This document shows positions 18,956-64,000 of a stretch of 64,000 nucleotides of DNA, piece by piece; within the stretch, counting starts at the first letter, position 1; every line of letters begins with the position of its first letter. The stretch lies in the NCBI GenBank assembly GCA_002245135.1, contig NGBS01000311.1, positions 62,001 through 126,000 on the forward strand, written 5' to 3'. The translations under genes and the position numbers were made by a program. Source of the stretch: Proteromonas lacertae. Taxonomy: Eukaryota. Below the pieces are notes generated by a model. The model was not told the origin of the DNA, ran no database searches, and worked only from the letters and a program-made list of their open reading frames with translations.

Positions 18956-19044
18956 TAAATATAATTAATAAAACTATATAAATGTTTATTGTTAATTGTT
19001 AATTGTATTTGTTTAATGAGTTTATTGAATTAAAAAAAGCTTGA

Positions 19045-19148
19045 TTCTTGTTTGACATTTCAAAATGAAATTTTCAAAAATTGAAGATGTTGCTGAGTAT
19101 TTAAAAAGTGCTTATGATATTGATTTGAATGTATGAGTTATATGTGAT
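19045..19148 (+). repeat. 104-bp direct repeat, left copy (kinase-LRR 5' end)
   Basis: Matches 32173-32276 with 3 mismatches. Confidence 0.95.
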
Positions 19149-19360
19149 GTACATAGTGTAAATATTAAATCAACTATATTAACTGTAAAGATATGTGTAA
19201 AAATGTTATTATTCCATGACAAATTCATATAGATCAATTATATTATTGCATGATATTAGAATGATGTTATTGTATAAAATATTTAGATGATATTAGTCTA
19301 TTATATAATTATAATCAGTGGTCAAGAAGAATATATTATGCAATTGTATAATAATCATTT
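19065..19360 (+). pseudogene. Kinase-LRR family remnant
   Basis: First exon MKFSKIEDVAEYLKSAYDIDLN, then degraded VIIP*QIHIDQLYYCMILE*CYC resembling YIIPSQLQMIDRSVAIIERSYY of the 32193 gene. Confidence 0.6.
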
Positions 19361-19430: not shown

Positions 19431-20255
19431 ATGTTAGATAAAATGAATATATATATATCAATTGTATTTATTATTTTCGTCAGCTTAATTATTTTTATAT
19501 ATTATATTTATATTAAGAGAAAAAAGAATATTATTTATAAAACAGTTAATAAGTTTCCTATATTAACTATATCTATTACAGCATGTAATAGGTATAATTA
19601 CTTAAATCAGACATTAAATGCTTTTTATAGGCATTTACATTATTATGAAAAAGAAATAGACTACAACATACTGTTTTTTGATCAGGGAACTGTTGAAAGA
19701 GAAGAAGTAATTAAAAAATACAATATTAAGAACTCATTTCTATTTAATCCAAGTGGTATGGAATTGAGTTTTGATACTCTATTTTCATATTTATATACAG
19801 AGTATGTATTTCTACTTGAAGAAGATTGGGTTGTTGATAATAATGTTGAAAAGGAAATTTTCCATCCATCATTTTTATATGAAGCAATACTATTATTATC
19901 TGTTGTAAAGAAAATATATGGAATAGTAATTAGAGAAACTGATCATTTTCAAATACATGAAACAATGAATGTAACAACTAAAATGGGTAAACATACTTTG
20001 TATATTGGATTATTAAAATTACAGTATGCTTTTACGAATGGTGCAAGTGTATATAGGACAAAAAATCTAAAGGAAATTGGTGTTTATACAGGTGAAAAAC
20101 TAGTTTCAGATATATTCTTAAATAAAGGATATAAATTAGGCTTTACATATAAAGGAAGAAATGGAAGTAAAGATGATATTCATATTCAACATGTGATGGA
20201 TCATATAGGTTTTCGTACATCTAAATCTGCAATATGTAGTGTAGCTTTATATTAA
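19431..20255 (+). CDS. Type II membrane GT-A fold (GT2-like) glycosyltransferase
   Basis: N-terminal TM; ITACNRYNYLNQTL, FDQG, YVFLLEEDW; intronless. Confidence 0.7.
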   Translation: MLDKMNIYISIVFIIFVSLIIFIYYIYIKRKKNIIYKTVNKFPILTISITACNRYNYLNQTLNAFYRHLHYYEKEIDYNILFFDQGTVEREEVIKKYNIKNSFLFNPSGMELSFDTLFSYLYTEYVFLLEEDWVVDNNVEKEIFHPSFLYEAILLLSVVKKIYGIVIRETDHFQIHETMNVTTKMGKHTLYIGLLKLQYAFTNGASVYRTKNLKEIGVYTGEKLVSDIFLNKGYKLGFTYKGRNGSKDDIHIQHVMDHIGFRTSKSAICSVALY

Positions 20256-20326
20256 AAATCGCAAGTATAAATATGGATTTTTGTTAATTATTCAATGTTA
20301 TTCTATTAATTTTATTAGTTTTTAAT

Positions 20327-20410
20327 AAACACGAAAGTGAGAGGCACAACAGATAGACGCTTATTTTGGAAAAGCACGTCAATTTCGTGTTTTGTGCCTT
20401 TCGTTGTCCA
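20327..20410. other. GC-enriched intergenic element with crossed inverted repeats (pseudoknot or switch-like)
   Basis: AAACACGAAA (20327) pairs with TTTCGTGTTT (20383); AGGCACAA (20342) with TTGTGCCT (20392); inner stem GACGCTT/AAGCACGTC. Confidence 0.55.
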
Positions 20411-20766
20411 GTTTATAATATTACTCAATATTCAAAATCTAAAATCATTTTTGATTAACTCTGAAAGCGTAAAGTTAGAGAGTTAGATGGATGATAGCTA
20501 AATTGCAGAAATCTAGTAAATGTTATACAAAGAACATTATCTAAATATGGTATTTCATTAGGCAAGGTTTATAATATTTCTTTAAAACATTCAGGTGTTG
20601 TACCAAACACTATAAAAATTAATTTTTGTTATACTATGTGAATGTCTTCGTTTGTAAGGATAAAGTTAACAAATAATGAAAGAACTAATATTAAAAATAA
20701 AATATAAATTGGATATTCTGACAACATTCCAGCTATAATATAAGAATATGAATTATTTACATCTAA

Positions 20767-21558
20767 ATGGTTTATTTATTTATATTACTGATTATATGCC
20801 TTTCTATGTTTGTTATTATTTTATTGCAATATAGTAACAAAAATAGATTTGATTTAAAGAAATTTGTCGTAAATAAAGAGATGAAGAAAGAAATATCATC
20901 ACTATTATCAAGTTGTAATACACAAAATAAAAATGAAAGTGAAATATACAGCCAAGGAGATTATGTGAAATTTATGAATAATTTGTCTTGTAAGTGTAAA
21001 GGAATTGGATATTGGGGTGGATTTTGTTTAAATAAAGATAGAATATATGTGGGAGGTAATCATGAGCATGATGTTGGTTTAGCAAATATCTTAGCAGAGA
21101 TATTTCAAAACAAAACGGTTGTTGATTTGGGATCTGGTTTAGGATGGTATTGCCCAATTATATCTAAAAAATCCAAAGTGTGTGATCAATATGATGGATC
21201 AGTTAATATAGAAGAAGCTACTAATGGTAGAGTTAAATATTTAAATTTAGCTCAGCCAATAGAGTTTGATTGTAATTATGATATAGTAATGTCACTTGAA
21301 GTAGCTGAACATATACCACAAACATATGAAGAAGTATATGTGAATAATCTTGTAAAGTGTAGTAGAGAAGGAATACTAATAACATGGAGTAGAATTGGTC
21401 AAGGAGGACATTTTCATGTAAATAATAAAGATAGAAATGATGTAATTAGATTATTTGAGAGTAAAGGATTGAGATATATAAATGAAACTACTTACATGAT
21501 AAAAAATACAACAAAAATAGATTGGTTGAGGGATAATGTATTATATTTTTCAAAATAA
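20767..21558 (+). CDS. Type II membrane class I SAM-dependent methyltransferase
   Basis: N-terminal TM; VVDLGSGLG, SLEVAEHIP, GQGGHFHVN. Confidence 0.85.
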   Translation: MVYLFILLIICLSMFVIILLQYSNKNRFDLKKFVVNKEMKKEISSLLSSCNTQNKNESEIYSQGDYVKFMNNLSCKCKGIGYWGGFCLNKDRIYVGGNHEHDVGLANILAEIFQNKTVVDLGSGLGWYCPIISKKSKVCDQYDGSVNIEEATNGRVKYLNLAQPIEFDCNYDIVMSLEVAEHIPQTYEEVYVNNLVKCSREGILITWSRIGQGGHFHVNNKDRNDVIRLFESKGLRYINETTYMIKNTTKIDWLRDNVLYFSK

Positions 21559-21585
21559 CATCTCTCTCACTTTGTTATAGAAGTA
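20874..21585 (+). repeat. 712-bp inverted repeat, arm 1
   Basis: Reverse complement of 30902-31617, apart from a few substitutions and one 4-nt insertion. Confidence 0.95.
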
Positions 21586-21674
21586 TAGATTTAATGTTAT
21601 TATTTATCATTATTATAAAAACATTACAAGAAAAATTGTTGTAAATGAAATACTAGTAAATAATATTAACCACA

Positions 21675-22119
21675 ATGACTTTAGATAATACAAATACAAA
21701 TAAGGGAGTATTTAATATTTATTATTTTAGTAATGTTAATTTTAATGTATTTGTATAATAATAATCATAATAAAGAATGTGTAATTAATGATGTAATAAA
21801 CTCACACATTCTTCCAATCTATAAATTAGGTAAAAACAAGCATATCACATCAGCTCATTATATAGATTATGAAAATTATATCAATTTAATTATTTATTCA
21901 GATTCAAAAAATATTGAATTTAGCAGATGTGTAATTGTGTATCATAAATTTAAAGACGAATGTAAAGCCAAAATGCAATATGAAGGAAGTAATTACTATT
22001 ATCGAATAGAGTTAAAAACTAGAAAGGATAAAAAGCCTTTGCTTTTGTTTTTGAATAATTTAACAATAAAATTTAACAATAAAAAACGAATAGACACAGA
22101 TTCATTTGTAGTGTGTTAA
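21675..22119 (+). pseudogene. Chimeric truncated GT92 fragment with a different signal anchor
   Basis: 21787-22116 equals 25023-25352 (1 mismatch seen); different N-terminal TM; stop right after the duplicated block. Confidence 0.8.
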
Positions 22120-22199
22120 TGTCATTATTTTATGAATCTAAACCAATAAGTATTAATACAAAGAATAATATAATATACTAGTAATAAATTGGGATGAAT

Positions 22200-22893
22200 T
22201 TGATTTATTTTATCATATACCAAATTATAATATAACATCAAAGTCATACAATTCTAGTTATTTGTTTTCATTATGCCCATTTAATAGTGAATCGCTAAAT
22301 AGTATAAAAGAGTTGAAGTATATATCATTTACATACATATAGTGTGATTTATTAGTAGGAATAATAAATAACTTAAGATTATCTAAGAATCTAAAGGATA
22401 TATTCAACAAAATGTTAATCGTTAATAAACATATAACAAAAGATGTTAATCTGTTTTTATCAAAGTATAGGTTAGTAGATTATATTGGAGTGCAAATGAG
22501 AGTAGGAAATGATGATTTACATGAAAGACAATTTTCAGTTTATATGATATAAAAATGATGATAGATTTGGCAAGAAGAAATAAGAAATATAAGAAATGGT
22601 TTTTAACAGGAGATTCACTGAGATTAAAACTGAATATAAGCAAAACATATAAACAAGTCATTTTATTTTCCAAGAACATATCTATACACTTTGCTTATAA
22701 TTTAAAAGAATCATCAATTATTATTGAACATGAAATGTTGTCAAAATCAAAATTTCTTATAATTTCAAAAAGTACATATGGATTAACATCTATGCTAAAG
22801 TCTGGTTTGTTATTATCCAAACATAATTTGAGTTATGAAGTAGAATATGGGTTAATATTTAATATGAAAAGTAAGTTTAGCAAGTTTCAGTAA
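22200..22893 (+). pseudogene. Fucosyltransferase-like (GT-B) remnant
   Basis: YIGVQMRVGND, WFLTGDS and LSKSKFLIISKSTYG resemble fucosyltransferase motifs I-III; in-frame stop and frameshift. Confidence 0.6.
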
Positions 22894-22901
22894 TATTTTA
22901 T

Positions 22902-23885
22902 ATGGATAGAATTAATGAGTATGGTATTATATACTTACTTATATTAATTATAATAATGATTATATATATTATAATTTATGTAAACTATGATGAATCTGAG
23001 ATATTATTTAAAAGCATTGTCATGAAAGAATTGTTTTACATTAGAAATACAACCGATAATAACTTACCAATATTATATAGTAGAAGATACACATCTGAAT
23101 CATACTATGTGAAGAATAAGACATTAATCAAAATGGAGAATAAAACAGTGAATTATAATACAAACTTTATCAAAAGACAGTCTAAAATCTTAGTTGCAAT
23201 TCATTCTCACATATCATTGTTTTATCATAGATATGTCTTTAGAAAAATATACAAAATATATAGGGATATTCAAGTATTATTTTTTATAGCATTAGATTAT
23301 AATCAAACATTAAACTCTCAGTTGTTAAAAGAAATGAAAATTTATCAAGATATTGTTCTATTCAATTTCAATTGCAATTATTATAATCTACATTTTTTAA
23401 CATATAATTTTCTTAAATGGGTTAAGAAGTATAAAAGTTTGTATGATGTGATAGTTAAACAGGATACTGATACATTTGTTAATATTCATATACTTCAATT
23501 AATGATAAAACAAGTGTTAAATAAAAACAATAAATCATTTGTTTTAGGATATATATGGGGATATGAAAATGTGAATATAAGATATCCTAGCGGAATGTCA
23601 TATGTATTTTTATCAAAATCAATTGATAAATTAGTTGTTCATTTAGATGAAGAATTCGATAGAGTGTATTATGGTTATCCTGAAGATATGTTTTTTGGAA
23701 GATTGGCAAGAAGAGCAAATTTCGATTTTATTGATGCTAATTTTACCTTTAATTACACTATATATATAGAAATTCCTAATATTATATTTGATGCAAAAAA
23801 GATATATATGATTCACTGGTTGAGAATTTCTGAAATAGCATTTTTACATTTGAATTGCAGCAACAGAAGGAATTTCGAAGTATAA
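22902..23885 (+). CDS. GT31-like galactosyltransferase, type II membrane
   Basis: TM; EMKIYQDIV, IVKQDTDTFVN, YPSGMSY, PEDMFFG. Confidence 0.8.
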   Translation: MDRINEYGIIYLLILIIIMIIYIIIYVNYDESEILFKSIVMKELFYIRNTTDNNLPILYSRRYTSESYYVKNKTLIKMENKTVNYNTNFIKRQSKILVAIHSHISLFYHRYVFRKIYKIYRDIQVLFFIALDYNQTLNSQLLKEMKIYQDIVLFNFNCNYYNLHFLTYNFLKWVKKYKSLYDVIVKQDTDTFVNIHILQLMIKQVLNKNNKSFVLGYIWGYENVNIRYPSGMSYVFLSKSIDKLVVHLDEEFDRVYYGYPEDMFFGRLARRANFDFIDANFTFNYTIYIEIPNIIFDAKKIYMIHWLRISEIAFLHLNCSNRRNFEV

Positions 23886-23916
23886 TTTATATATAAATTC
23901 ATATTGGTTGTAAGAA

Positions 23917-24823
23917 ATGGAGTTTTTTGTTACTTTATTATTTCTTGTACTAATAACCATTATTGTAGTATTGTTATTCTATATTAAGATTAATAATAAA
24001 TCATGAAATAAATATAATAGAAATTATTCAAAGTATATAAAATATCTTGATCAGAAATGGGAAAATTTTGAATCAAGAAGAGGACGATTATCTGATCAAC
24101 ATATAAGAACACAGCTATTTCCGTTAATCAAAGAGATTATTCTAGTTTTATCAAAAAAATAATGTATATATGATATTGGTGGAAATATTGGAGATATAAC
24201 AGAAATGTTTAATAAATACTACCCTAACAATTACATATTCACTGTTGAACCTTTAGAAGCTAATTATAAAGAAATGAAATCAAGAATTAATAGAACCAAG
24301 AAGATTAAGCTTTACAACATTGCATTAGGATCATTTGATGGGAATAGAGTATCTAATACATTAAATAGTGGAGGTTTAGGAGATTATTTATATCCAGGAA
24401 GATTAATGAATGAATTTAACATTAAATATATGAAAACTGATTCATTTTATAAGAAATTTTATATATATATATATATATATATATCTTATAGCAAATAATA
24501 TGGAAATGCTCTTTTTCAAATTAGATACAGAAGGATTTGAAGATGATATTATGTACAATGCAAAGTATTTATTGGAAAATGAAAAAATCAAAATAATATA
24601 TTTAGAATATCATCAAGGATATTGTAAAGAGTATGAATCTAATCTAATTCATTATTTGAATAAATATGGTTTTAATACATATTTAGTGGGAAGTAATTTT
24701 CTATTAAGTACTAATGATTGTCCAAATTACTCATTGGATAGATTTAGTTTAGGTCATATTATAGGTTTTCATACCACAAAAGAAATTGAAAATGATTTTA
24801 TAAAGAAGTACAACAAGTCTTAG
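23917..24823 (+). pseudogene. FkbM-family methyltransferase, disrupted
   Basis: TM, YDIGGNIG, TVEPL, KLDTEGFE; in-frame TGA 24004 and TAA 24160; (TA)n intron lacking a GT donor. Confidence 0.75.
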
Positions 24824-24932
24824 TAAATATTTTATACTAAATGGTTATTATGTATTTGATTTTTGATTTTTAAACACTAAAGCTTGATGAAAGTTCAAGC
24901 TTACTTTTCAAATAGAATATTATAAGCAGAAT

Positions 24933-26123
24933 ATGAAAATAAGACTAATTATCATATTCGTTATATCTTTAGTTTTATTATCAATATGTTTGTATAGTAA
25001 GTATAATAATAGTTTTATAGGAAATGATGTAATAAACTCACACATTCTTCCAATCTATAAATTAGGTAAAAACAAGTATATCACATCAGCTCATTATATA
25101 GATTATGAAAATTATATCAATTTAATTATTTATTCAGATTCAAAAAATATTGAATTTAGCAGATGTGTAATTGTGTATCATAAATTTAAAGACGAATGTA
25201 AAGCCAAAATGCAATATGAAGGAAGTAATTACTATTATCGAATAGAGTTAAAAACTAGAAAGGATAAAAAGCCTTTGCTTTTGTTTTTGAATAATTTAAC
25301 AATAAAATTTAACAATAAAAAACGAATAGACACAGATTCATTTGTAGTGTGTATATCAATTGTAGTAAAACTAAAAAGGCCTCTTATGCTTATACAGTTG
25401 ATTGAATCATATAGAAAATTCGGAGTATCAAAAATTGTTGTAAATTATCAATCATCATCAGTAGATGTTATAAAGGTATTGAATTATTATAATCAAATGG
25501 GCGTTGTAGATATATATCAATATAATGATACTGTAGATGAGAGGTTTAGAGATATTGAAAATGATGTTAATCCATATATATATTATTTTCAAATATGGAA
25601 GATAAATCAATGTTATTTTGATTATAAAACTCCATCAAATCACATTATTGTATTAGATGTAGATGAAATTCTTTGGCCAGTTAAAGCATCTAATTATAAA
25701 GAGCTGTTTAAGTCATTACCAAAAATGGATTACTTTTTTTTGCATCAATTCTTTTACAAAATTGAAATTAATATCCCTAGAAATAAAGATCATACAACCG
25801 ATCTTACAGATGTGGATATATTTTCTATAAGGAATTATTGCCCTACTTCCAATGGAATAGCTCACAAATATATAATCCATAATACCAGCAAAATCACTAA
25901 AGCTGAAGTTCATTTTGTACAATATAAAGAAAATGTCAATCAGCAATATATACCCAATAATATTGCTTATGTTAGACATACCAGGCATTATGATGATAAT
26001 ATAAAAGTAATGTGTATTAATTCATCTATTACACATAATACATCAGCAGTTGAGAATAAACTTCATCTTTTATCCAAATCAGTTTATAAAAAAATATTGA
26101 ATAAGATATTTCTAGGGAGATAA
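24933..26123 (+). CDS. GT92 (DUF23)-like glycosyltransferase
   Basis: TM; FVVCIS, LIESYRKFGVSK, QIWKINQC, IIVLDVDEILWP, KYII, VHF. Confidence 0.8.
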   Translation: MKIRLIIIFVISLVLLSICLYSKYNNSFIGNDVINSHILPIYKLGKNKYITSAHYIDYENYINLIIYSDSKNIEFSRCVIVYHKFKDECKAKMQYEGSNYYYRIELKTRKDKKPLLLFLNNLTIKFNNKKRIDTDSFVVCISIVVKLKRPLMLIQLIESYRKFGVSKIVVNYQSSSVDVIKVLNYYNQMGVVDIYQYNDTVDERFRDIENDVNPYIYYFQIWKINQCYFDYKTPSNHIIVLDVDEILWPVKASNYKELFKSLPKMDYFFLHQFFYKIEINIPRNKDHTTDLTDVDIFSIRNYCPTSNGIAHKYIIHNTSKITKAEVHFVQYKENVNQQYIPNNIAYVRHTRHYDDNIKVMCINSSITHNTSAVENKLHLLSKSVYKKILNKIFLGR

Positions 26124-26738
26124 TTCTCAAAACTTTGTTAATACAACATTTTTATCTTCTTTTTTCAATAAAGTTGCGATTACATTCTATGTGTGTTTAA
26201 AATGTTGTTATTACCAGAATCATAAAAATAAAAATGGTTATATGTCACTCTAACACTATTAATTTCATCTTCTTTATACACACACTATAAATTGTCTGAT
26301 TATATTTTTTTCTAATTAATATCAAATTCACATTACCAAATATGTTCTATATGAAGCTTAATCATAAAAAATAAAATAAAAATATCAAGCTTTTGGCTTG
26401 TGATTTTTGATTTTTTTTTTTTTTGAATATTGTAATTAATGTTAGTCAATCAATTATATAGGTACTAGCATTTGAAATGATAAAGTTATGTAAGTCTTAC
26501 CAGAATGTTTGCGAATTTTTCTGTAATAGATTTAAAATTAACTCAATTAACTTGATAGTTAATCGCTTCCCTAAGCTGTATTATTAAGTTTAAATCATGC
26601 TTAATTTTTAGCAATTTTGAGGGTAATAAATGATTAATTTCTATATTACTATGAAGAGGCTGATATAAAGAATTTAATTACAGAGGTAGAAATAGAATAA
26701 TAAATTAAAATGGAATTATAAAGAATTAAAATAACAGA

Positions 26739-27587
26739 TTATACAAAGTATTTTTCTATTTCTTCTCTTGTAGTTGATTTATACTTTTGGTTATAATCAT
26801 AGTGAATAGAGAAGTTATAAGCTCTATTATTAGAACACAAATCAGTTTTACCATTTAGAAATGATATTAATGTTAAAGAACTTTGATCTTGTCTGTGATT
26901 TGATCTATCTGATCCAGGAGGAGCAATACAATCATGTTGTAAAGCACATTTCTCCCATTCATACAATATTTTTTCTGCTAAACGAGAAGGATACATAAAA
27001 GCCACAGTTCCACCAGCACAACATGTTTTATTCAACCATTTATCAGGAAAATTGAAATGTTTTAACATTAAAGGATGTGTATATTTCTTAATATCGTGAC
27101 TAGTTCTTTGAGACCATACTTTGTTTTTCTTGATATTTTCTATCATATAGTTTATACTTCCAGTTATATTACATCCAGCATCAAGCCAAACAACAGGATG
27201 TTTGTATTTTTTATACACTTCATATATTATTACTGGTTTCCATGCATATTCACCTGCAGCAACTGATATATTGAAATATGATGGATAGTTATTGAAAGGA
27301 AAATTTTGTAATAGAAATAATGGATGATTGAGTTTATATCTGTTAAGTAAATAAAGTGTATTTTGTGATAATCCTAGATTATATACAATCATCAGAAATC
27401 TGTTGTTATGTACATAAAATGTGTGAATCATGTTTAATAATAACAATTCGTGGTTTTCTGATCCTCCAGTTACAATTACATAATCATAATCCAATATTTC
27501 ATTATTCTTTACAAACATATTATACATATATATAATAAATATTATAAAAATACAGCTAATGAAAAACTTGGTTTTAAATCTAAACAT
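26739..27587 (-). CDS. DUF1647-like putative glycosyltransferase
   Basis: TM; VTGGSENH, VYNLGLS, YAWKPVII, WLDAG, HRQDQS. Confidence 0.75.
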   Translation of the reverse strand: MFRFKTKFFISCIFIIFIIYMYNMFVKNNEILDYDYVIVTGGSENHELLLLNMIHTFYVHNNRFLMIVYNLGLSQNTLYLLNRYKLNHPLFLLQNFPFNNYPSYFNISVAAGEYAWKPVIIYEVYKKYKHPVVWLDAGCNITGSINYMIENIKKNKVWSQRTSHDIKKYTHPLMLKHFNFPDKWLNKTCCAGGTVAFMYPSRLAEKILYEWEKCALQHDCIAPPGSDRSNHRQDQSSLTLISFLNGKTDLCSNNRAYNFSIHYDYNQKYKSTTREEIEKYFV

Positions 27588-28498
27588 TAAAATAAATAAT
27601 TTACATATTTAGAAACAACTGAAATGTAGTTTAGTCCATATTCATTGGTTTTGAATAAAAATTGTATTAGTGGAACAATATTCTCTACCCAATAATGAAT
27701 AGTATCATTAGGTAGATGTGGAAGATGTATATCTATTATTTCATTCCAATTAGCAGACATATTCTTTTTCCATTCTTCATTATTATCTCCTCTGTCAAAT
27801 CTTGTATTATCATATGATCTTTTATGGAAGTTTATTTTATTTGGATAGAATTTTGATTTTCTTATTTTGTCTCTCATATATATTTCATCAATACAATATC
27901 CATATCTTATATAATCTGAATCTATTATCTCTTTTACTAATTCATACTCGTTTGCTTTGTTTAGTATATCAATTTTTAGTATATCCTCATACATTTGTTT
28001 TGTTCCGCTGAAATAACACATAGGCCATCTTCTACTTACATATCCATTCAATCCAAAGGATTTTATGGTGAAATTGGTATAAGAATAATCCTGAAAAAAT
28101 GTGTAGTTATAGGGAAGCATATCAACATCAGAAATGTACAATATACTATTCTCTTTTTTGATTTGCAACGAACTAAAAATTCTGCACAGTTTGGAGAAAT
28201 ATTCTAAAGAATAGTTTTGTGGAATAACAATTTCTTTATATATAGCTTCTTGTTCAGTTAATTTGTTGACTAACTCATTTGGCAATTTTTGATGTGATAT
28301 AATGTATATAATCGATGTATATCCAAATATTCTCCACATTTTCACAAAAAGCGGAATGTAAAAGAGATATGGGCCAGATGCTGAAATTCCAACATATTTT
28401 TCAAAATTATTACTGTTATATATATTTATATAATTGCATAAGAATAAAAAGATGATGAATAATAAAACTATGATAAAGTAGTTGTATAGTCTTTTCAT
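27587..28498 (-). CDS. Putative type II membrane glycosyltransferase (DxD)
   Basis: TM; ISDVDMLP, RWPMCY, IDE, RFDR, DIH; family not assignable by eye. Confidence 0.6.
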   Translation of the reverse strand: MKRLYNYFIIVLLFIIFLFLCNYINIYNSNNFEKYVGISASGPYLFYIPLFVKMWRIFGYTSIIYIISHQKLPNELVNKLTEQEAIYKEIVIPQNYSLEYFSKLCRIFSSLQIKKENSILYISDVDMLPYNYTFFQDYSYTNFTIKSFGLNGYVSRRWPMCYFSGTKQMYEDILKIDILNKANEYELVKEIIDSDYIRYGYCIDEIYMRDKIRKSKFYPNKINFHKRSYDNTRFDRGDNNEEWKKNMSANWNEIIDIHLPHLPNDTIHYWVENIVPLIQFLFKTNEYGLNYISVVSKYVNYLF

Positions 28499-29545
28499 AT
28501 GTATGTTGTTTTTATATTCCTTTTGTTATTTCTAGCTTTTATAATGAATTATTACTATTTATTTTCAAATAATAATGAATATAATAATATTAGGAAGAAA
28601 GTATATGAAATTTTAACATTAGACATTTATGATAGATTATTTAAAAATGTCAGTTTAACATACTTGGGAAATAGAGTAAATTACAAGAATAATATACTAA
28701 AATACGCATTTGTGAGTTTTATAACTGGTGAAGATTATATTAAATTGATAAATGGAACTATATACTCAGTACACCAATTTTCTAATTATCCTATAGTTTT
28801 ATATGTTGCTGGTGTAATAACAAAGACTATGAATGAAGTCTTTTCACATTATAATAGATTATTAGTTTATTCTATTCCACCTGAAACAACAACTCCTTAT
28901 TTTATAAAATTAAGAGCTTCATTATTAGCTCCAGTTTTGGTAGGTCAAATAGTTGAAGCAGATACAATAGTATTACCTGGCGCAGATTGTTTATTTAAAA
29001 GAATAGAAGAAGAAATTAATGAAAAATATCCTTTTCCAATGATGCCTAGACATCCTGATATAAGAGGCGTTGAAAAGGGAAATGGAACAACAAACATACT
29101 TGATTATCCAATGAATAATAGATCAATGAGATATATGCATGCTCATATGTCTTGGACTTATCATGCTTTACCATTTATAGCATATGTGTATAACAAATCT
29201 TTCATATATGACTATGGAAATGATGAATATGCTTTAAATATCAATTTGTGGGAAAGAAAAGCAAATAAACAATGGTGTATTTATGATCCATACTACAGCG
29301 TAGTAGATATATCACATTCTAGTGATGTCTTCTATAAAACAGATGATATGCTGACGATATATAATTACATTCATGGATGTAAATCTTACATATATCAACA
29401 GAGATTGATAAATAAACTAACACTACTTAAACAAAATGAATATAAAATAATTTACGCTACAAACAAATCTATTCATTTTTCACAATCCTGTAAATTAGAT
29501 AATTTAATTTTAAAAGAAATTTATAAGGAAAATTGTTTAATCTAA
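28499..29545 (+). CDS. Putative type II membrane GT-A-like transferase
   Basis: TM; YSVHQFSNYPIVLY, FIKLRA, IVEADTI, DEYALNINLW, IHGCK. Confidence 0.6.
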   Translation: MYVVFIFLLLFLAFIMNYYYLFSNNNEYNNIRKKVYEILTLDIYDRLFKNVSLTYLGNRVNYKNNILKYAFVSFITGEDYIKLINGTIYSVHQFSNYPIVLYVAGVITKTMNEVFSHYNRLLVYSIPPETTTPYFIKLRASLLAPVLVGQIVEADTIVLPGADCLFKRIEEEINEKYPFPMMPRHPDIRGVEKGNGTTNILDYPMNNRSMRYMHAHMSWTYHALPFIAYVYNKSFIYDYGNDEYALNINLWERKANKQWCIYDPYYSVVDISHSSDVFYKTDDMLTIYNYIHGCKSYIYQQRLINKLTLLKQNEYKIIYATNKSIHFSQSCKLDNLILKEIYKENCLI

Positions 29546-29550
29546 GTTCA

Positions 29551-30516
29551 TTATCTATATTTTATATATTTGCAATGTAAAAAATATATCTCATGAGGTT
29601 TTAATCTGTGAATCATAAAGATGTTATCAACAGAATCAATCACAATACTACCTTCTCCAATTATCTTATTATATTTTCTAACATCACACATACTTACGTT
29701 TGATATTTTTGATAATCTTCCTATAAATACATCTTCTGGTTTACCGTAACAGTTACTATTTATTTCAGAAGTACTTCCCTTCAATAAAGCATTTATAAGA
29801 TTAAATGGTATTACATACCCCATTCCACTAGGAAAATAACCTATAATATATCCCCATATATGATTTTCTGCACTTTCTGATGATTTTGAATGTAATTCTT
29901 TGAGTACATTAATGTTAATGAAAGTATCTGTATCATGTTTAATTAACCATTTGAAGTGAGTGTGAAGCTTTGAACTCCATAATAGAATATTATAGGTTTG
30001 TAGTTCTAATGCATAATAAGATGATAAGAAATTGAATTGAATAACATCTTTAGAATGTTTTATCTCTTTTGTAATTTTTCTATTAATAATTGATTCATTA
30101 CTCTTCCCTGTGATAAATATATATGACAAGAATATATATCCTCTATATATTTTTCTAAATACTTCTCTTTCATAGAACATATCTGGTTCTGAAATTACAG
30201 TAATTAGATATTCACAGTCTTTTATTGTAGGATAATCTAGGTCATTATGGCTAAATTCATTTAATAATAACACATATGGATTTGATTTTCTATTCTTTAA
30301 GTACAATTCATCAAATTTTCTACTACAAGTTACTTTTTTTGTCCTATTAAAACATTGTTCAATTTTTTCAATATCTTTAGATAAAATATTATCAAAATTT
30401 GCAATACTTGAATTGCATGTAAGAATGAGTGTAATTATTATAAAACCACCAAAAGCTATAATAAGCTTTGAATAAAATATTATTAGTCTTATAAATTTTG
30501 ATATAATATAATACAT
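29551..30516 (-). CDS. GT31-like galactosyltransferase (paralog of 22902)
   Basis: TM; WLIKHDTDTFIN, FPSGMGY, PEDVFIG, MIHRL. Confidence 0.8.
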   Translation of the reverse strand: MYYIISKFIRLIIFYSKLIIAFGGFIIITLILTCNSSIANFDNILSKDIEKIEQCFNRTKKVTCSRKFDELYLKNRKSNPYVLLLNEFSHNDLDYPTIKDCEYLITVISEPDMFYEREVFRKIYRGYIFLSYIFITGKSNESIINRKITKEIKHSKDVIQFNFLSSYYALELQTYNILLWSSKLHTHFKWLIKHDTDTFININVLKELHSKSSESAENHIWGYIIGYFPSGMGYVIPFNLINALLKGSTSEINSNCYGKPEDVFIGRLSKISNVSMCDVRKYNKIIGEGSIVIDSVDNIFMIHRLKPHEIYFLHCKYIKYR

Positions 30517-30901
30517 AAATAAATCATTTTTTAATCACAACATTTTATAAATATCCTTTAAATATTCTGTATTTGAAATTTATTGCTATTCTTTCTATAA
30601 TTCTATATGATTTTAATGTTAAATTATTTCAAGGAGGTTATTTAGGAGTAGACATACTACTTGTACTAACATGTTTTAACTTGCTATATGCTACTGCTGT
30701 ATTTACCTGATACAACAAATATATTGTTGAAGCGAAAGAAGAAAGAAACGGAGTAATGCTAAGTATCATTTTCACTTTAATTCATATATTTTTATTCTCT
30801 CATATAATATACACATTATTCATAACTGCAATTATCCGTAGCAATTGTCTAAATAATATTAAAAAAGAAATATGCTTTAAGCCATTGTAATGAATATTTT
30901 T

Positions 30902-31617
30902 TACTTCTATAACAAAGTGAAAGAGATGTTATTTTGAAAAATATAATACATTATCCCTCAACCAATCTATTTTTGTTGTATTTTTTATCATGTAAGTAGT
31001 TTCATTTATATATCTCAATCCTTTACTCTCAAATAATCTAATTACATCATTTCTATCTTTATTATTTACATGAATATGTCCTCCTTGACCAATTCTACTC
31101 CATGTTATTAGTATTCCTTCTCTACTACACTTTACAAGATTATTCACATATACTTCTTCATATGTTTGTGGTATATGTTCAGCTACTTCAAGTGACATTA
31201 CTATATCATAATTACAATCAAACTCTATTGGCTGAGCTAAATTTAAATATTTTACTCTGCCATTAGTAGCTTCTTCTATATTAACTGATCCATCATATTG
31301 ATCGCAGACTTTGGATTTTTTAGATATAATTGGGCAATACCATCCTAAACCAGATCCCAAATCAACAACCGTTTTGTTTTGAAATATCTCTGCTAAGATA
31401 TTTGCTAAACTAACATCATGCTCATGATTACCTCCCACATACATATATTCTATCTTTATTTAAACAAAATCCACCCCAATATCCAATTCCTTTTCACTTA
31501 CAAGACAAATTATTCATAAATTTCGCATAATCTCCTTGGCTATATATTTCACTTTCATTTTTATTTTGTGTATTACAACTTGATAATAGTGATGATATTT
31601 CTTTCTTCATCTCTTTA
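30902..31617 (-). pseudogene. 5'-truncated copy of the SAM methyltransferase (inverted repeat arm 2)
   Basis: Lacks the TM; TGT>TGA near 31495 and a 4-nt ATGT duplication near 31441; residual 171-aa ORF. Confidence 0.85.
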
Positions 31618-31905: not shown

Positions 31906-32172
31906 TTATAATATGTATCATTTTTATGTAGCACTACTTCTTAAGCATATTCATTTTGAAAAGCAAAGAATAAAAGATAATCTCAATTGTAGTAAGTCTT
32001 TAAAATGTGGTTATTCATCTTGTATAAAGATTAGTAAAAGCTGAAGGTAGTAGTATATCTCCAGTAATGGTGTTTCTTCATTTTACTACAATATTAAATG
32101 ACTGTAAATAGCTTTAATTCTGGTTCGATACATTTTAATAGCTTCATTTTGAAAGAATCTTAAAATGTTTGT

Positions 32173-32276
32173 TTCTTGTTTGACATTTCAAAATGAAATT
32201 TTCAAAAATTGAAGATGTTACTGAGTGTTTAAAAAGTGCTTATGGTATTGATTTGAATGTATGAGTTATATGTGAT
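32173..32276 (+). repeat. 104-bp direct repeat, right copy
   Basis: Matches 19045-19148. Confidence 0.95.
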
Positions 32277-35200
32277 ATAAATAATAGGATTTCGAGGTGA
32301 TAATAAAAAGCAGAGATGAAATTCGTGTAATGAAAGATGATCATACTAAAATACTAAAAATCTTTAATATTAGAGGTATAGAAGAAGATATTTTAAAGTT
32401 TATAAGGGAAAACTACTATTTCTTGGATATAATTTCTCTTCCTTACATTATTCCATCACAATTACAAATGATTGATCGTAGTGTGGCGATTATTGAGAGA
32501 AGTTATTATGTTATTGACTTAGAAGAGATGATTCATAATAAATCTATTTCATATGTTGATATATGTAGTATGATGTGTTCATTGTGTGATATTCTAATGA
32601 TACTAAGTGAAAATGACTTAGTGATAAGCAATTTGAAGAGTAGTAATTTGATATATGAAAGAGATGGTGAAGTTAATTTATGTGATTTATGTTTGAATAA
32701 ATTGAGAAGAGAAGAAGATATGAGAGTATTTGATATGTGCTTCAAAAGCCCAGAAGAATTGAATGGATTAGAATGTAATGAGAGAAGTATGATTTGGTCA
32801 ATTGGATGTGTATTATATGAAATGATAAACAAAAGATTACCATTTTCTGAAGATTATGAAATATATAAAACAATCGATAATATTGTGAGATGTAAATACA
32901 GTTGTGGGATGAAATGTGATGATTCAATGAAAGAAATAATACAAAGAATGTTGAAAGTGAAGAGAGAAGAGAGATTGAGTATAAAAGAGTTGAATAAAGA
33001 GATGACAAAAATAAGTAAAATATTCAGAGATGGAAATGATAATTTAATGATATGTAATGATAGAAAAGAAAAATTATTCAATGCTGATTATTCAATTGTT
33101 TCATTTCCAATAATTTTTCCACAAAAATATTATCTTAAAAATGATAAATGGAAAGAAATTCGAGATGATTTAATAGAATCATACAACAATAATCCAAATG
33201 AAAGAATACTGTCAATATTATTGATTATTAAACTATACAAATCAGATATATCAATAAAAAATAATATAAAATTTCAAATTCTTCATAAATGTGATGAAGG
33301 AAAAGAATGTTATTTAGATAGAATGATATATAATCTTAAAACTGATAAAGAAATCATCAGAATTGGTGCAAAATATATTTGTTTTTGTAAAGAAGGTATT
33401 AGTTATTTATTTAGGTTATTAAATTTGATCAATCCAGCGAAACTATCATTTTGTATTATTCTAATCATATTTATTTTTATAGATTATGATGATGTTATTA
33501 TTCCATACAAAATTCAATCATTATTCGGATTATATTTTAGTCGATTATCAAATCTAGAAGAATTATATATATCACAATGTAATCTTACTTCTCAATTCAT
33601 TGAGTCATTTATTAAGTCAATTCAACTGTCCAAATTGAAACATGTGAGATTAGAATGTATTTTATTTTATATAACTATGAAATAGATAATCCAATTGGTC
33701 CAAAAGGCTTCAAATTATTACTTCCATATTTGCATTTATTATACAACGAAAATCATGAATTGAATCTAATAGGGATGAATTTAAATGATGAATCAATTAT
33801 ATTATTATCAGAAGAAATATACAGATATGCAAATATTGAGAAAATAAATATAACAGAAAACAATATTCATTCAAGAGAATTAAAAGCTTTATTCTCCAAA
33901 TTTCCTATTACAAAAATCAAGTTTGATTTTAATGGAAGTATAAAGCTACTGATAGATAAAGACATTCCAGAATTATTAAAATACATAATAAAGAGTAATA
34001 AATTTTTTCTGAGTAATTATGAAATTGATGATAATTTTTTCAAATCATTCATTTCATGGAGATTAAATGAATTAAGAGAAATAGAAGATTTAGATCTGAG
34101 TAGTATATGTTGATATTTTTATATTATTTAGATAATAAACTAACACATGAAAGTGTCAAAATACTGATTAACAATTTATCTTCATTACTAAAATTACAGC
34201 ATCTTCAATTGTATGGAAATGAAATAGGAGATGAAGGAATGATATTATTATCTCAGGAAGTATATTTATTGAAAAAAAGGTATGGTAATGAAATAAATTG
34301 TTCAAGTATTATTATTATATCTTTTTTTTTATATAGAAATGGGATTATCATCAGTTGGAATGAAATATTTAGTTGATGGTTTAAAGAAAATTGATGATAG
34401 GATAGTACTTGATATAAGTGATAATAGTATAGATTCAGATGGAATAGAATATTTGATGAATAATGTGAAAGAAAATGATATTGTTAAAAAGATATTTATT
34501 CATGGTATATTTATATATAATTTAATAAATGTTTAATAGATAATCCAATTGGAAATAGTGGATTTAAATTGTTAGAAAAAAATCTGAATATGATTATATA
34601 TGGTTTAATGAATTTAAGTAATATCTCAATAGATGATGAAAGTGTAATGTTATTAACAAATAATATAAAATCATTTAGAGAATGTGAAACAGTTAATCTA
34701 AAAGGAAATAATATCAAAATGAAGGGATTAAAATCAATTTGTTCAAAATCGTTAAAAAAAGAAGAACATCCATTTATAGAAATGAATAATTCATCATGGA
34801 CAAATGAAGAATTGGAATATTATTTGGATTATTGTATTAAAAAGAAACGAAATAAGTTTTATAAAGAATATAATTTTTCAAGTATATTATCTATATTTTT
34901 AATAAAATAGATATGAATTTGAATGATTCTCACATCTCATTGATTAAACAGATCGGTTATGAAAAGCTTGAAATATGTAATAATAGAATAACTTCAAAAG
35001 GGTTGAAAGAAATATCAGATTGCTTTTCAGAAGAAGTGAAATATCTCACCTTATTTAATAATGATATTGGAGATAAAGGAATAGAGATAATCTGTAAATA
35101 TTTGGATATATTTGTAGAAAAGAATAGTAGATATAATCCTTCATCATTAAATATCTCAGGTATTATATGACTATAATTTAATAAAATATTTTGAATAGAT

Positions 35201-39367: not shown

Positions 39368-39544
39368 TCGAAAATTCAAAAAATTCAAAAGTGAAAAGCA
39401 AGTTTGGCTTGATTTTATAAAATGAGATAAACATGTGCAAAAAGATGTTGTATGTTAAAATATACATCTGATGATATGATTTAATCGAATAGTGTTTAAA
39501 TTATAATTAATAATTGTATTTCATGTAAAACCTTACTTTTTTTA

Positions 39545-39929
39545 TTTAGGTATTAGTTATTGTATGAAAAGCAGAAAAATGAAATAATTTATATTATATT
39601 AATAAGGATTATCAACTTATGAGTATTTTAGTTAATTAATGCTTGACTAGGTTTGATTCTTATTTAAAAATTGCTGTTGTTTTTTACAGTAGTAAACAGT
39701 CAAAAGAGTAAAAATAATGTATGAATCAATTATTTGTAATTTCATTAGATCATAGTGAATATATAAATTAAAACAGATGAGTTTTTACACCTCTCCTACT
39801 TCTTATGGTCGAAGCAGATCTAATTTAACAAACTTGTCACCTAATAAAAATTTGGCTCATACTACACCATCTAAACGCTTCTCTATTCCAAATTCTTTAC
39901 AAAAACCAGTCTCACCATATCTAGAAGTA
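39545..39929 (+). repeat. ~385-bp direct duplication of the upstream region and first ~50 codons of the giant gene
   Basis: Matches 42531-42915; truncated ORF from ATG 39777. Confidence 0.95.
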
Positions 39930-40157: not shown

Positions 40158-42443
40158 ATGAATAAAAATTGCAAACTAGACGAGAATTGTATAAAATCGG
40201 ACCATTCCATAATTAATACATACAAAAATCTGAGTGTAGATGATAAAGAAAAAAACAATCAAGAAATTAGTCTAAAATCAAGATCAAGTAAATCATATAA
40301 AGATGTTATTGCCAATTTAGACTGCATTTCTGATGAAATGGATTTACCAACAGTTGAATATCCTGATTCTGCATATAAATCCAATCCGTATGTAGAAGAA
40401 AGAATGGATGATAATATACGTTATTTGAAAGGAAGAATACCATCTCCAAAGTGGAATAAACTTATAGAAAGCACTGATAAACATTTTTCTGGAAATTCCT
40501 CAAAACCTTTACCATTAACTTCAATGCAGGAAGAACCACATCACTCACCTGAGAATAAGAATGAAAGTAAAAGAGAAGTGATAGAATGGATTGCAATAGG
40601 AGATCATTCATATGTAAAATCCGATTATGATATATATTCATATTTAGAGAAATATCTATCAGCTGAAGAAATGTCAAAGAAATATAAAATATCGATGTAT
40701 GAATGGCATGATTTATTACAATCTCATAATCCAGATAAGATAAATATTGCTGAAGAAGATAATGAAAGTGAAAGAGAAGTGATAGAATGGATTGCAATAG
40801 GAGATCATTCATATGTAAAACCTGATTATGATATATATTCATATTTAGAGAAATATCTATCAGCTGAAGAAATGTCAAAGAAATATAAAATATCGATGTA
40901 TGAATGGCATGATTTATTACAATCTCATAATCCAGATAAGATAAATATTGCTGAAGAAGATAATGAAAGTGAAAGAGAAGTGATAGAATGGATTGCAATA
41001 GGAGATCATTCATATGTAAAACCTGATTATGATATATATTCATATTTAGAGAAATATCTATCAGCTGAAGAAATGTCAAAGAAATATAAAATATCGATGT
41101 ATGAATGGCATGATTTATTACAATCTCATAATCCAGATAAGATAAATATTGCTGAAGAAGATAATGAAAGTGAAAGAGAAGTGATAGAATGGATTGCAAT
41201 AGGAGATCATTCATATGTAAAACCTGATTATGATATATATTCATATTTAGAGAAATATCTATCAGCTGAAGAAATGTCAAAGAAATATAAAATATCGATG
41301 TATGAATGGCATGATTTATTACATTCTTATGATCCAAATAACAAAAAATCAGATGATAAAAATGAGATTAAAGATAAAAATGAAGAATATGAATGGATTG
41401 CAATAGGAGATCATTCATATGTAAAATCCGATTATGATATATATTCATATCTAGAGAAATACTTACCAGCTGAAGAAATGTCAAAGAAATATAAAATAGG
41501 TCTATATGAATGGCATGATTTATTACATTCTTATGATCCAAATAACAAAAAATCAGATGATAAAAATGAGATTAAAGATAAAAATGAAGAATATGAATGG
41601 ATTCAAATTGGAGATGATGCTTATTCAAAATCTGATTATAATGACTATTCATATCTAGAGAAATACTTACCAGCTGAAGAAATGTCAAAGAAATATAAAA
41701 TAGGTCTATATGAATGGCATGATTTATTACATTCTTATGATCCAAATAACAAAAAATCAGATGATAAAAATGAGATTAAAGATAAAAATGAAGAATATGA
41801 ATGGATTCAAATTGGAGATGATGCTTATTCAAAATCTGATTATAATGACTATTCATATCTAGAGAAATACTTACCAGCTGAAGAAATGTCAAAGAAATAT
41901 AAAATAGGTCTATATGAATGGCATGATTTATTACATTCTTATGATCCAAATAACAAAAAATCAGATGATAAAAATGAGATTAAAGATAAAAATGAAGAAT
42001 ATGAATGGATTCAAATTGGAGATGATGCTTATTCAAAATCTGATTATAATGACTATTCATATCTAGAGAAATACTTACCAGCTGAAGAAATGTCAAAGAA
42101 ATATAAAATAGGTCTATATGAATGGCATGATTTATTACATTCTTATGATCCAAATAACAAAAAATCAGATGATAAAAATGAGATTAAAGATAAAAATGAA
42201 GAATATGAATGGATTCAAATTGGAGATGATGCTTATTCAAAATCTGATTATAATGACTATTCATATCTAGAGAAATACTTACCAGCTGAAGAAATGTCAA
42301 AGAAATATAAAATAGGTCTATATGAATGGCATGATTTATTACATTCTTATGATCCAAATAACAAAAAATCAGATGAAATGAAAAATGATATAGAAACTAA
42401 AAAGTGTAAAAAAGTTGTTGAAGATAGAAGTATTACTGTATGA
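40158..42443 (+). CDS. Tandem-repeat protein (9 x 67-68 aa), paralog of the giant gene
   Basis: 761-aa ORF; shares the PDSAYKSNPYVEERMDDNIRYLKGRIPSP block and the repeat domain with 42763. Confidence 0.8.
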   Translation: MNKNCKLDENCIKSDHSIINTYKNLSVDDKEKNNQEISLKSRSSKSYKDVIANLDCISDEMDLPTVEYPDSAYKSNPYVEERMDDNIRYLKGRIPSPKWNKLIESTDKHFSGNSSKPLPLTSMQEEPHHSPENKNESKREVIEWIAIGDHSYVKSDYDIYSYLEKYLSAEEMSKKYKISMYEWHDLLQSHNPDKINIAEEDNESEREVIEWIAIGDHSYVKPDYDIYSYLEKYLSAEEMSKKYKISMYEWHDLLQSHNPDKINIAEEDNESEREVIEWIAIGDHSYVKPDYDIYSYLEKYLSAEEMSKKYKISMYEWHDLLQSHNPDKINIAEEDNESEREVIEWIAIGDHSYVKPDYDIYSYLEKYLSAEEMSKKYKISMYEWHDLLHSYDPNNKKSDDKNEIKDKNEEYEWIAIGDHSYVKSDYDIYSYLEKYLPAEEMSKKYKIGLYEWHDLLHSYDPNNKKSDDKNEIKDKNEEYEWIQIGDDAYSKSDYNDYSYLEKYLPAEEMSKKYKIGLYEWHDLLHSYDPNNKKSDDKNEIKDKNEEYEWIQIGDDAYSKSDYNDYSYLEKYLPAEEMSKKYKIGLYEWHDLLHSYDPNNKKSDDKNEIKDKNEEYEWIQIGDDAYSKSDYNDYSYLEKYLPAEEMSKKYKIGLYEWHDLLHSYDPNNKKSDDKNEIKDKNEEYEWIQIGDDAYSKSDYNDYSYLEKYLPAEEMSKKYKIGLYEWHDLLHSYDPNNKKSDEMKNDIETKKCKKVVEDRSITV
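40570..42376 (+). repeat. Coding tandem array with periods 201 nt (x3) then 204 nt (x5)
   Basis: EW codons at 40584, 40785, 40986, 41187, 41391, 41595, 41799, 42003, 42207. Confidence 0.95.
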
Positions 42444-42762
42444 GCTTATGAATAAGACTATTACTTGTAGATACGAAAGAATTTGATAGTCATAATTATT
42501 ATTATAAACATATAAGACCATATTTGTTTGTTTAGGTATTAGTTATTGTATGAAAAGCAGAAAAATGAAATAATTTATATTATATTAATAAAGATTATCA
42601 ACTTATGAGTATTTTAGTTAATTAATGCTTGACTAGGTTTGATTCTTATTTAAAAATTGCTGTTGTTTTTTACAGTAGTAAACAGTCAAAAGAGTAAAAA
42701 TAATGTATGAATCAATTATTTGTAATTTCATTAGATCATAGTGAATATATAAATTAAAACAG

Positions 42763-63499: not shown

Positions 63500-64000
63500 T
63501 TACAATAAATCTAATTGTTCTGTACAGGCTAATCCATAAAAACCTTTGAAACATTCACATAAACCTGTTGCTCCATTACATATTCCATTATTTGCACATT
63601 GAGAAGGAGATGGTAAATCAGGATTGACAAGTGGTTTAACTTCATTTTCAAGATTTTTAACAGTAACTTCATCTTTTTCATAATAAAATTTATCATTTTC
63701 TTTATCAAGTGTTTTCTTCACAATACCAGTAGGATTATTTGATAATCCATGATATGATAGATCACTTGATTGTAGGTTTTTACTTATATCATCTGGTGTA
63801 TAAGTATTTCTAAATTTTCACCTTGTCTTCCTGTTTGATGAGATCCATATGTAATTTGAACTTGAACTTTGTTTGATTTAAACAATTTCTGTTTAATATC
63901 ATCAGTTCCATCCATATTAGATTTAATATCTTTACCATCTAATTCATATACAACTACTTTTTCTACATTCAATACACCTGGTGGGAAACTATTAACAACA
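63500..64000 (-). CDS. 3' part of an EGF/tenascin-like paralog (partial)
   Basis: SFPPG, ITYGSHQTG, YHGLS and CANNGICNGATGLCECFKGFYGLACTEQ shared with the 53579 gene; one frameshift at ~63800. Confidence 0.75.

What the first reader, a model, noticed from the sequence alone, without database searches (positions are those of the whole stretch)
28480..28520. Divergent genes with zero intergenic distance (CAT|ATG)
Seen: the minus-strand start (CAT 28496-28498) abuts the plus-strand ATG (28499). Both ATGs immediately precede signal anchors, so downstream starts would lose most or all of the TM. Inference: each gene's promoter and 5'UTR lie inside the other's CDS, giving overlapping sense/antisense 5' ends, mutually exclusive expression, or leaderless mRNAs.
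Basis: partly seen in the sequence, partly recalled or inferred. Interest (0 to 1): 0.7.

Follow-up and report, generated by a model that had tools for sequence, protein, structure and literature searches.

The report
Back-to-back genes with no promoter gap
In what is likely a Blastocystis-type gut protist, two intact genes predicted to encode membrane-anchored sugar transferases point away from each other with no DNA between their start codons, so each would likely have to use the start of the other gene as its promoter, an extreme but untested case of the gene crowding known from other compact protists.

Summary
Confirmed in the assembly: CAT 28496-28498 abuts ATG 28499-28501. Both ORFs (303 aa, 348 aa) are intact, unrelated to each other, and start with signal anchors. 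Homologues begin at the same position, so these are the ancestral starts. Both look like GT-A glycosyltransferases. The host is likely a low-GC Blastocystis. Five host divergent pairs are 83-515 bp apart, so 0 bp is abnormal for the genome. It is not an isolated oddity: it is the middle of three consecutive junctions of -1 (TAATG), 0 and +5 bp in a 13-kb intronless, rearranging glycan-gene island flanked by a ~125-nt direct repeat. Most likely, local deletion removed the spacer, and the very AT-rich anchor-coding DNA (16-17% GC, like host spacers) doubles as promoter. That would give short leaders (at most 28 nt plus, 120 nt minus, if scanning holds) with overlapping 5' ends. No reads, RNA or syntenic locus could be obtained, so recent silencing of one gene or an assembly collapse remain open. 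Mutually exclusive expression has no support. Related behaviour is known in microsporidia and Giardia.

The parts
28496..28501 (.). CAT|ATG junction; 0 bp between the two start codons
   Evidence: sequence
27587..28498 (-). Intact intronless 303-aa ORF; N-terminal signal anchor (about residues 8-26); DxD-type motif DVD; predicted GT-A glycosyltransferase of no Pfam family
   Evidence: 3 homologue clusters at 73-90% identity start at the same position
28499..29545 (+). Intact intronless 348-aa ORF; signal anchor (about residues 3-21); E-A-D155, DE..LN and HG.K motifs; predicted GT8/GT77-like GT-A enzyme of an unnamed family of 230 proteins
   Evidence: the link of the motifs to GT8/GT77 is recalled
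28471..28498 (+). Longest ATG-free leader window for the plus gene (28 nt), inside the minus CDS; upstream ATGs at 28452, 28455 and 28470 open a short out-of-frame ORF
   Evidence: leader is inferred
28499..28616 (-). Longest ATG-free leader window for the minus gene (about 120 nt), inside the plus CDS
   Evidence: leader is inferred; the ATG-free run is not longer than chance (P 0.27)
26739..27587 (-). DUF1647 type II membrane gene; its ATG overlaps the stop of the 303-aa gene by 1 nt (TAATG)
29551..30516 (-). Galactosyl_T (PF01762) gene, convergent, 5 bp from the stop of the 348-aa gene
19431..31617 (.). Intronless glycan-modification island: GT2-like, methyltransferase x2, GT92 plus a truncated copy, PF01762 x2, FkbM-type methyltransferase in pieces, a broken fucosyltransferase-like gene (label recalled from motifs), DUF1647, and the two junction genes
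19034..19155 (+). Left direct repeat: stub copy of the ATG, exon 1 and intron-1 start of the kinase-LRR gene
   Evidence: 122 nt, 93%
32162..32283 (+). Right direct repeat: 5' end of the kinase-LRR gene (ATG at 32193)

Best explanation
Two intact, unrelated genes predicted to encode type II membrane glycosyltransferases sit head to head with 0 bp between their ancestral start codons, likely because a local deletion in a rearranging glycan-gene island removed the spacer, and both are likely still transcribed from starts inside each other's AT-rich anchor-coding DNA. Shown: zero gap, intact ORFs, homologue-supported starts, equally tight neighbouring junctions, local duplications and deletions. 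Inferred: the first ~100 nt of each CDS (16-17% GC) acts as the AT-rich core promoter of the opposite gene; the capped mRNAs have short leaders (at most 28 nt plus, about 120 nt minus) whose 5' ends overlap by a few to some tens of nt; scanning picks the first ATG; the products are Golgi/ER enzymes that build surface glycans. The arrangement is most likely tolerated compaction rather than a built switch.
For: Starts are ancestral: the 3 of 3 minus-gene homologue clusters and 3 of 4 plus-gene clusters begin at the aligned Met with a hydrophobic anchor. The plus protein carries the residues shared across a 17-protein alignment of its wider family, including D155, D242-E243, N247, H292-G293-K295. 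Its 23 private changes at 165 otherwise invariant columns are conservative (mean BLOSUM62 +0.87 vs -0.35 for random missense, p 0.0004). The minus protein has 5 private changes at 199 columns and a 90-91% relative. Three consecutive junctions of -1, 0 and +5 bp, all leaving ORFs whole, are hard to get from independent assembly slips. The 200 nt around the junction are 16.5% GC (lowest ~1% of 200-nt windows), within the 13-24% of host divergent spacers. Island GC3 (0.14-0.23) matches host GC3 (0.11-0.23), so the genes look resident. The island shows recent duplication and deletion: a 98% inverted methyltransferase copy, a 92% truncated GT92 copy, a 93% flanking direct repeat. Precedent: leaders under 7 nt and signals inside adjacent CDSs in Encephalitozoon (PMC2803860); initiation in loose AT-rich patches and a ~3-nt leader in Giardia (PMC1885649).
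Against: No expression or read evidence at all. No related locus shows the pair conserved. The minus gene has a 5-member cluster at ~90% identity, but the best plus-gene relative is 65%, so the pairing may be recent or confined to this lineage. The plus protein has more private changes (23 vs 4-11) and the longest branch (0.83) of its six-row tree. An intact ORF survives 1-2% neutral change 30-60% of the time (substitutions only), so recent silencing is not excluded. The low GC is shared by the first 100 nt of all 8 island ORFs tested (13-18%), so it is not specific to this junction. The ATG-free leaders are no longer than chance (P 0.47 and 0.27). 3 of 5 members of the 90% cluster are recorded from M54; this may be contig-edge truncation or gene-caller choice. 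The island carries likely long-read errors (TA run at 24460, T run at 26411).
Confidence: 0.5

Rival explanations
1. The junction is real but recent: a deletion removed the shared promoter and silenced one gene (more likely the plus gene), whose ORF has not yet decayed.
For: The island holds several broken or truncated genes. A 98%-identical methyltransferase copy already carries a stop and an indel, so decay is active. No ~90% relative of the plus gene was found although the minus gene has one. The plus protein has a long branch. The ORF would stay open with probability 0.61 and 0.32 at 1% and 2% neutral change.
Against: Private changes in the plus protein are conservative and family motifs are intact. 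A random deletion is not expected to stop at both ancestral ATGs unless keeping both is selected or a short repeat guided it. The -1 and +5 neighbours imply that promoters and terminators inside CDSs are tolerated here.
Confidence: 0.2
2. Assembly artefact: a short spacer was collapsed. If both genes had AT before their ATG, the shared ATAT would join them into exactly CATATG.
For: The ATAT overlap follows from the sequence. Signs of indel errors or decay elsewhere in the island. No reads could be checked.
Against: The two flanking junctions are equally tight and ORF-preserving. The two sides are unrelated genes, not a fold-back (no long inverted repeat at the junction). Both ORFs align to homologues from M1 with at most a 2-residue gap near the start.
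Confidence: 0.12
3. One bidirectional initiation point at CAT|ATG yields two leaderless (0-3 nt) mRNAs, or the overlapping promoters make expression mutually exclusive, switching surface glycans.
For: The geometry allows it. Leaders of 1-7 nt occur in Encephalitozoon (PMC2803860) and leaderless nuclear mRNAs in unicellular eukaryotes (PMC5124965, abstract and introduction). Nearest upstream ATGs at 11-29 nt for 4 of 8 island starts listed suggest short leaders.
Against: No shared initiator motif is evident before 26 listed starts (by eye). No transcript data. Five host divergent pairs keep at least 83 bp. Nothing points to switching.
Confidence: 0.1
4. Transcripts start far upstream, within or beyond the opposite gene, and lose upstream ATGs by splicing, or the block is read from multigene transcripts with reinitiation at TAATG.
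For: Multigene and overrun transcripts are documented in microsporidia (PMC2803860). The TAATG overlap at 27587. Host introns are only 25-36 nt (7 of 7 checked).
Against: No intron is needed in any island ORF. Long leaders would carry upstream ATGs. No evidence for reinitiation in this lineage.
Confidence: 0.08

Closest known systems
Overlapping transcription in compact microsporidia (Encephalitozoon cuniculi, Antonospora locustae; PMC2803860, passages read)
   Same: Very short leaders; control signals displaced into adjacent genes; a head-to-head ribosomal-protein pair 35 bp apart sharing one signal
   Different: There compaction is genome-wide, and 120 of 129 apparent CDS overlaps vanished when starts were corrected. 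Here the gap is 0, the starts are homologue-supported, and the compaction is local to an island.
Giardia lamblia bidirectional AT-rich promoters (PMC1885649, passages read)
   Same: Initiation in loosely defined AT-rich patches, also inside coding regions; leaders of ~3-25 nt; divergent firing
   Different: Giardia examples have 30-308 bp spacers. Nothing equivalent has been tested in this lineage.
Blastocystis gene packing (PMC5608401, passages; PMC12129017, passages and section 5)
   Same: ~30-nt introns; spacers of only tens of bp are common in human subtypes; low-GC lineages (21-23% GC) keep DNA-encoded stops
   Different: Reported overlaps (0, 95 and 5 in three subtypes) are mostly 3' annotation artefacts of poly(A)-made stops. 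The low-GC lineages have a median spacer of 645-719 bp, so a 0-bp 5'-5' junction runs against their trend.
GT-A fold type II membrane glycosyltransferases (GT8 PF01501, GT77-type PF03407)
   Same: N-terminal anchor, DxD-like motif, DE..LN and H..K motifs; nearest named Atlas clusters at 0.92-0.95
   Different: No Pfam or NCBIfam hit and only a weak PHROG row; 46 of 47 wider relatives also lack Pfam hits; donor and acceptor unknown

Membership tests
Divergent gene pair with 5'-overlapping transcripts | Two real head-to-head protein-coding genes | tested here: met
   Intact ORFs with homologues under apparent purifying selection
Divergent gene pair with 5'-overlapping transcripts | Annotated ATGs are the true starts | tested here: met
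   Homologue N-termini align; anchor lost with downstream Met. Sequence evidence only, no proteomics.
Divergent gene pair with 5'-overlapping transcripts | Both transcribed, with starts inside the opposite CDS | not testable with these tools
   No run was available to lay reads from
Divergent gene pair with 5'-overlapping transcripts | Junction present in raw DNA or conserved in relatives | tested here: inconclusive
   No related locus in five scans; no genome held
Leaderless mRNA genes | Transcript begins at or within a few nt of AUG | not testable with these tools
   Only upper bounds on leader length: 28 and ~120 nt
GT-A glycosyltransferase (GT8/GT77-like) | DxD-like and C-terminal His/Lys motifs conserved | tested here: met
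   Plus: E-A-D155, D242-E243, H292-G-x-K295 conserved. Minus: D-V-D and DE conserved in close homologues only. Motif names recalled.
GT-A glycosyltransferase (GT8/GT77-like) | Profile or fold match to the family | tested here: inconclusive
   No Pfam hit; models at pLDDT ~43; Foldseek has no match at E 0.001, only weak GT-A rows such as glycogenin; Atlas feature hits 0.92-0.95
Endogenous viral or recently transferred island | Viral hallmark genes, alien composition or viral sequence relatives | tested here: not met
   GC3 like the host; no relatives in viral contigs or phages; no hallmark gene among island ORFs scanned. Only the Atlas look-alikes are mostly viral, which the tool says is no sign of transfer.

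The most novel reading that the evidence does not exclude
A nuclear eukaryotic gene block run like a prokaryotic or viral one: a single bidirectional start point at CAT|ATG yields two leaderless mRNAs whose promoters are the partner's signal-anchor codons, possibly mutually exclusive as a surface-glycan switch, with the downstream DUF1647 gene translated by stop-start reinitiation at TAATG.
Probability: 0.1. Interest if true: 0.75.

Novelty: new variant of a known kind. Interest (0 to 1): 0.4.

Why it matters
If both genes are expressed, this is the limiting case of eukaryotic gene packing: a promoter of zero dedicated bases, in a lineage whose ordinary spacers are long. It would give a simple natural test of how Blastocystis-type protists pick transcription and translation starts; a search for papers with 'Blastocystis', '5 UTR' and 'transcription start' returned none. 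It also points to an unannotated, fast-rearranging glycosyltransferase island that may shape the surface coat. If one gene is silent or the spacer was lost in assembly, it is ordinary.

Tried and rejected
Sequencing runs: none was listed, no RNA holder listed. No whole genome is held. Related loci: none confirmed in metagenome contigs, viral contigs (25, 69) or GTDB (68); no tblastn match in phages. Earlier scan notes: nothing by place, sequence or words; one loosely related note. AlphaFold models too poor to use (pLDDT 42.6 and 42.8); Foldseek and PDB sequence searches gave nothing significant. Pfam, PHROG and NCBIfam do not name the two proteins. The two proteins are not paralogues (HHalign probability 0.7%) and have no second copy in the window, so a fold-back or inverted duplication at the junction is rejected. 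Upstream extension of either ORF rejected. Recent viral origin rejected on GC3 and lack of relatives. The TGTTTGTT downstream element of human subtypes is not enriched at gene ends by eye (13 sites). Depletion of upstream ATGs is not significant. Literature: searches listed 1 and 4 papers, none by title or abstract start about a zero-gap eukaryotic pair (listings only); one search listed none. Supplements were not read. Three start coordinates in the list were slightly off and were corrected; they do not touch the five spacer values.

Full report
Observation. The window reads CAT at 28496-28498 and ATG at 28499-28501. The first is the start of a 303-aa minus-strand ORF (27587..28498), the second the start of a 348-aa plus-strand ORF (28499..29545). 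Neither frame extends upstream. The next in-frame Met (M54, M16) removes the hydrophobic anchor: best window 2.7 to 0.5 and 2.3 to 0.6. CATATG is not rare in itself (29 seen, about 20 expected).

Are the genes and starts real? The minus protein has 3 homologue clusters at 73-90% identity and the plus protein 4 at 54-65%, all unnamed assembly proteins. All 3 and 3 of the 4 start at the aligned Met with an anchor. These starts are gene-caller predictions, and 3 of 5 members of the closest minus cluster are recorded from M54. A profile of the plus family finds 230 proteins at E up to 0.001. In a 17-row alignment, 16 columns are invariant, among them D155, D242, E243, N247, H292, G293 and K295; from memory this is a GT8/GT77-like GT-A pattern. 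The Atlas points both proteins to nucleotide-diphospho-sugar transferase and GT8 look-alikes. Pfam and NCBIfam do not name them, 46 of 47 relatives scanned have no Pfam hit, and the folds were unusable. The two proteins are unrelated by profile. The plus protein has 23 private changes at 165 otherwise invariant columns against 4-11 for four other lineages, and the longest branch. Those changes are conservative (BLOSUM62 +0.87 vs -0.35, p 0.0004; the null uses single-base missense changes). So both genes were under selection for most of their history; current activity is not shown.

Host. The EH-domain protein at 59879 has its best near-full-length hits in Blastocystis at 62-64%, other taxa at 57% or less. 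Seven hand-checked introns are 25-36 nt with GT-AG ends, and the window is 22-34% GC. This fits a low-GC Blastocystis lineage (inference). Such lineages are reported at 21-23% GC with median spacers of 645-719 bp, while human subtypes have 137-186 bp and often tens of bp (PMC12129017, passages and section 5). Five hand-annotated divergent host pairs here are 83, 87, 409, 410 and 515 bp apart (starts chosen without RNA).

Surroundings. The pair lies in a 13-kb island (19431-31617) of intronless glycosyl- and methyltransferase genes, most with N-terminal anchors. The nine junctions scored are 511, 8, 31, 109, 615, -1, 0, 5 and 412 bp; junctions around the truncated GT92 copy were left out because its ends are unclear. 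The finding is the middle of three consecutive junctions: a TAATG stop-start overlap at 27587, the 0-bp divergent junction, and a 5-bp convergent gap at 29545/29551. The island is rearranging. It holds a 716-nt inverted methyltransferase copy at 98% with a stop and an indel, a 92% truncated GT92 copy that runs into the middle of another broken gene, and two PF01762 paralogues at 31%. It is flanked by a 122-nt, 93% direct repeat that is the 5' end of the kinase-LRR gene at 32193. GC3 matches the host, and no viral or phage relatives were found, so a recent viral insert is unlikely.

Mechanism. If both genes are expressed, their promoters must lie in the opposite CDS. The 200 nt around the junction are 16.5% GC, in the lowest ~1% of the window and within the 13-24% of host spacers. 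This comes from anchor codons, since the first 100 nt of all 8 island ORFs tested are 13-18% GC. Anchor-coding DNA therefore resembles promoter DNA in composition, which would let a spacer be deleted at little cost (inference). Under first-AUG scanning the leaders are at most 28 nt (plus) and about 120 nt (minus); these ATG-free runs are not longer than chance. If both genes had AT before the ATG, a deletion between the two ATAT words would give exactly CATATG; this could happen in the cell or in an assembler (speculation). I put 0.5 on both genes being expressed with short overlapping leaders, 0.2 on recent silencing of one gene (an ORF this long stays open 61% and 32% of the time at 1% and 2% neutral change), 0.12 on an assembly collapse, 0.1 on leaderless or mutually exclusive expression, and 0.08 on long or multigene transcripts.

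Limits. No reads, RNA or syntenic DNA could be examined: five locus scans confirmed nothing and no genome is held. The lack of a ~90% relative of the plus gene, where the minus gene has one, weakly suggests the pairing is not old.

Comparison. It works like overlapping transcription in microsporidia (leaders under 7 nt, a 35-bp head-to-head pair, signals occasionally inside adjacent CDSs; PMC2803860, passages) and like Giardia's AT-rich bidirectional initiation (PMC1885649, passages). Overlaps reported in Blastocystis are mostly 3' annotation artefacts (PMC5608401, passages). Leaderless nuclear mRNAs are described for unicellular eukaryotes (PMC5124965, abstract and start of text). Searches showed no report of a 0-bp divergent pair in this group, from listings only; supplements were not read. 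Membership among 5'-overlapping divergent pairs is met for gene reality and starts, and untested for transcription.

Verdict. A real feature of the assembly and an extreme variant of known gene crowding, more notable for being local to an island in a loosely packed genome. The regulatory claims are unproven. Interest 0.4.

Noticed in passing
window 19034-19155 and 32162-32283: A 122-nt, 93% direct repeat (5' end of a kinase-LRR gene) flanks the whole 13-kb glycosyltransferase island, as if the island was inserted or moved with duplication of that gene's start.
   Followed up: partly
window 27585-27589 (minus): TAATG stop-start overlap between the 303-aa gene and the DUF1647 gene; prokaryote- or virus-like, and a candidate for reinitiation or a promoter inside the upstream CDS.
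   Followed up: partly
window 29545-29551: Convergent genes 5 bp apart; their 3' ends must overlap the opposite CDS.
   Followed up: partly
window 20874-21585 and 30902-31617: Inverted 98% copy of a methyltransferase gene; the copy is 5'-truncated with an in-frame stop and an indel.
   Followed up: partly
window 21698-22893: Truncated GT92 copy (92%) running into the middle of a broken gene with fucosyltransferase-like motifs (label recalled, no family hit); a likely deletion junction.
   Followed up: partly
window 23917-24823: FkbM-type methyltransferase gene in pieces, with a break at a long TA run near 24460; assembly error or pseudogene.
   Followed up: partly
window 28499-29545: The plus protein belongs to an unnamed family of 230 predicted GT-A enzymes without a Pfam model; a relative's cluster includes a marine eukaryote transcript.
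   Followed up: partly
window 39520-39920 and 42520-42900; 40158-49881: Duplicated 5' region ahead of two long low-complexity repeat ORFs (761 and 2372 aa), the first with tandem units of about 66 aa.
   Followed up: no
window 10983-12117: Agmatine-deiminase-like gene (label from recalled motifs) with short introns, divergent from an Argonaute-like gene; a possible old bacterial transfer.
   Followed up: no
window 53579-54873 and 63500-64000: Two related EGF-repeat surface-protein-like genes on opposite strands.
   Followed up: no
window 24881-24903: Short inverted repeat with AAGCTT arms 30 nt upstream of the GT92 start.
   Followed up: no
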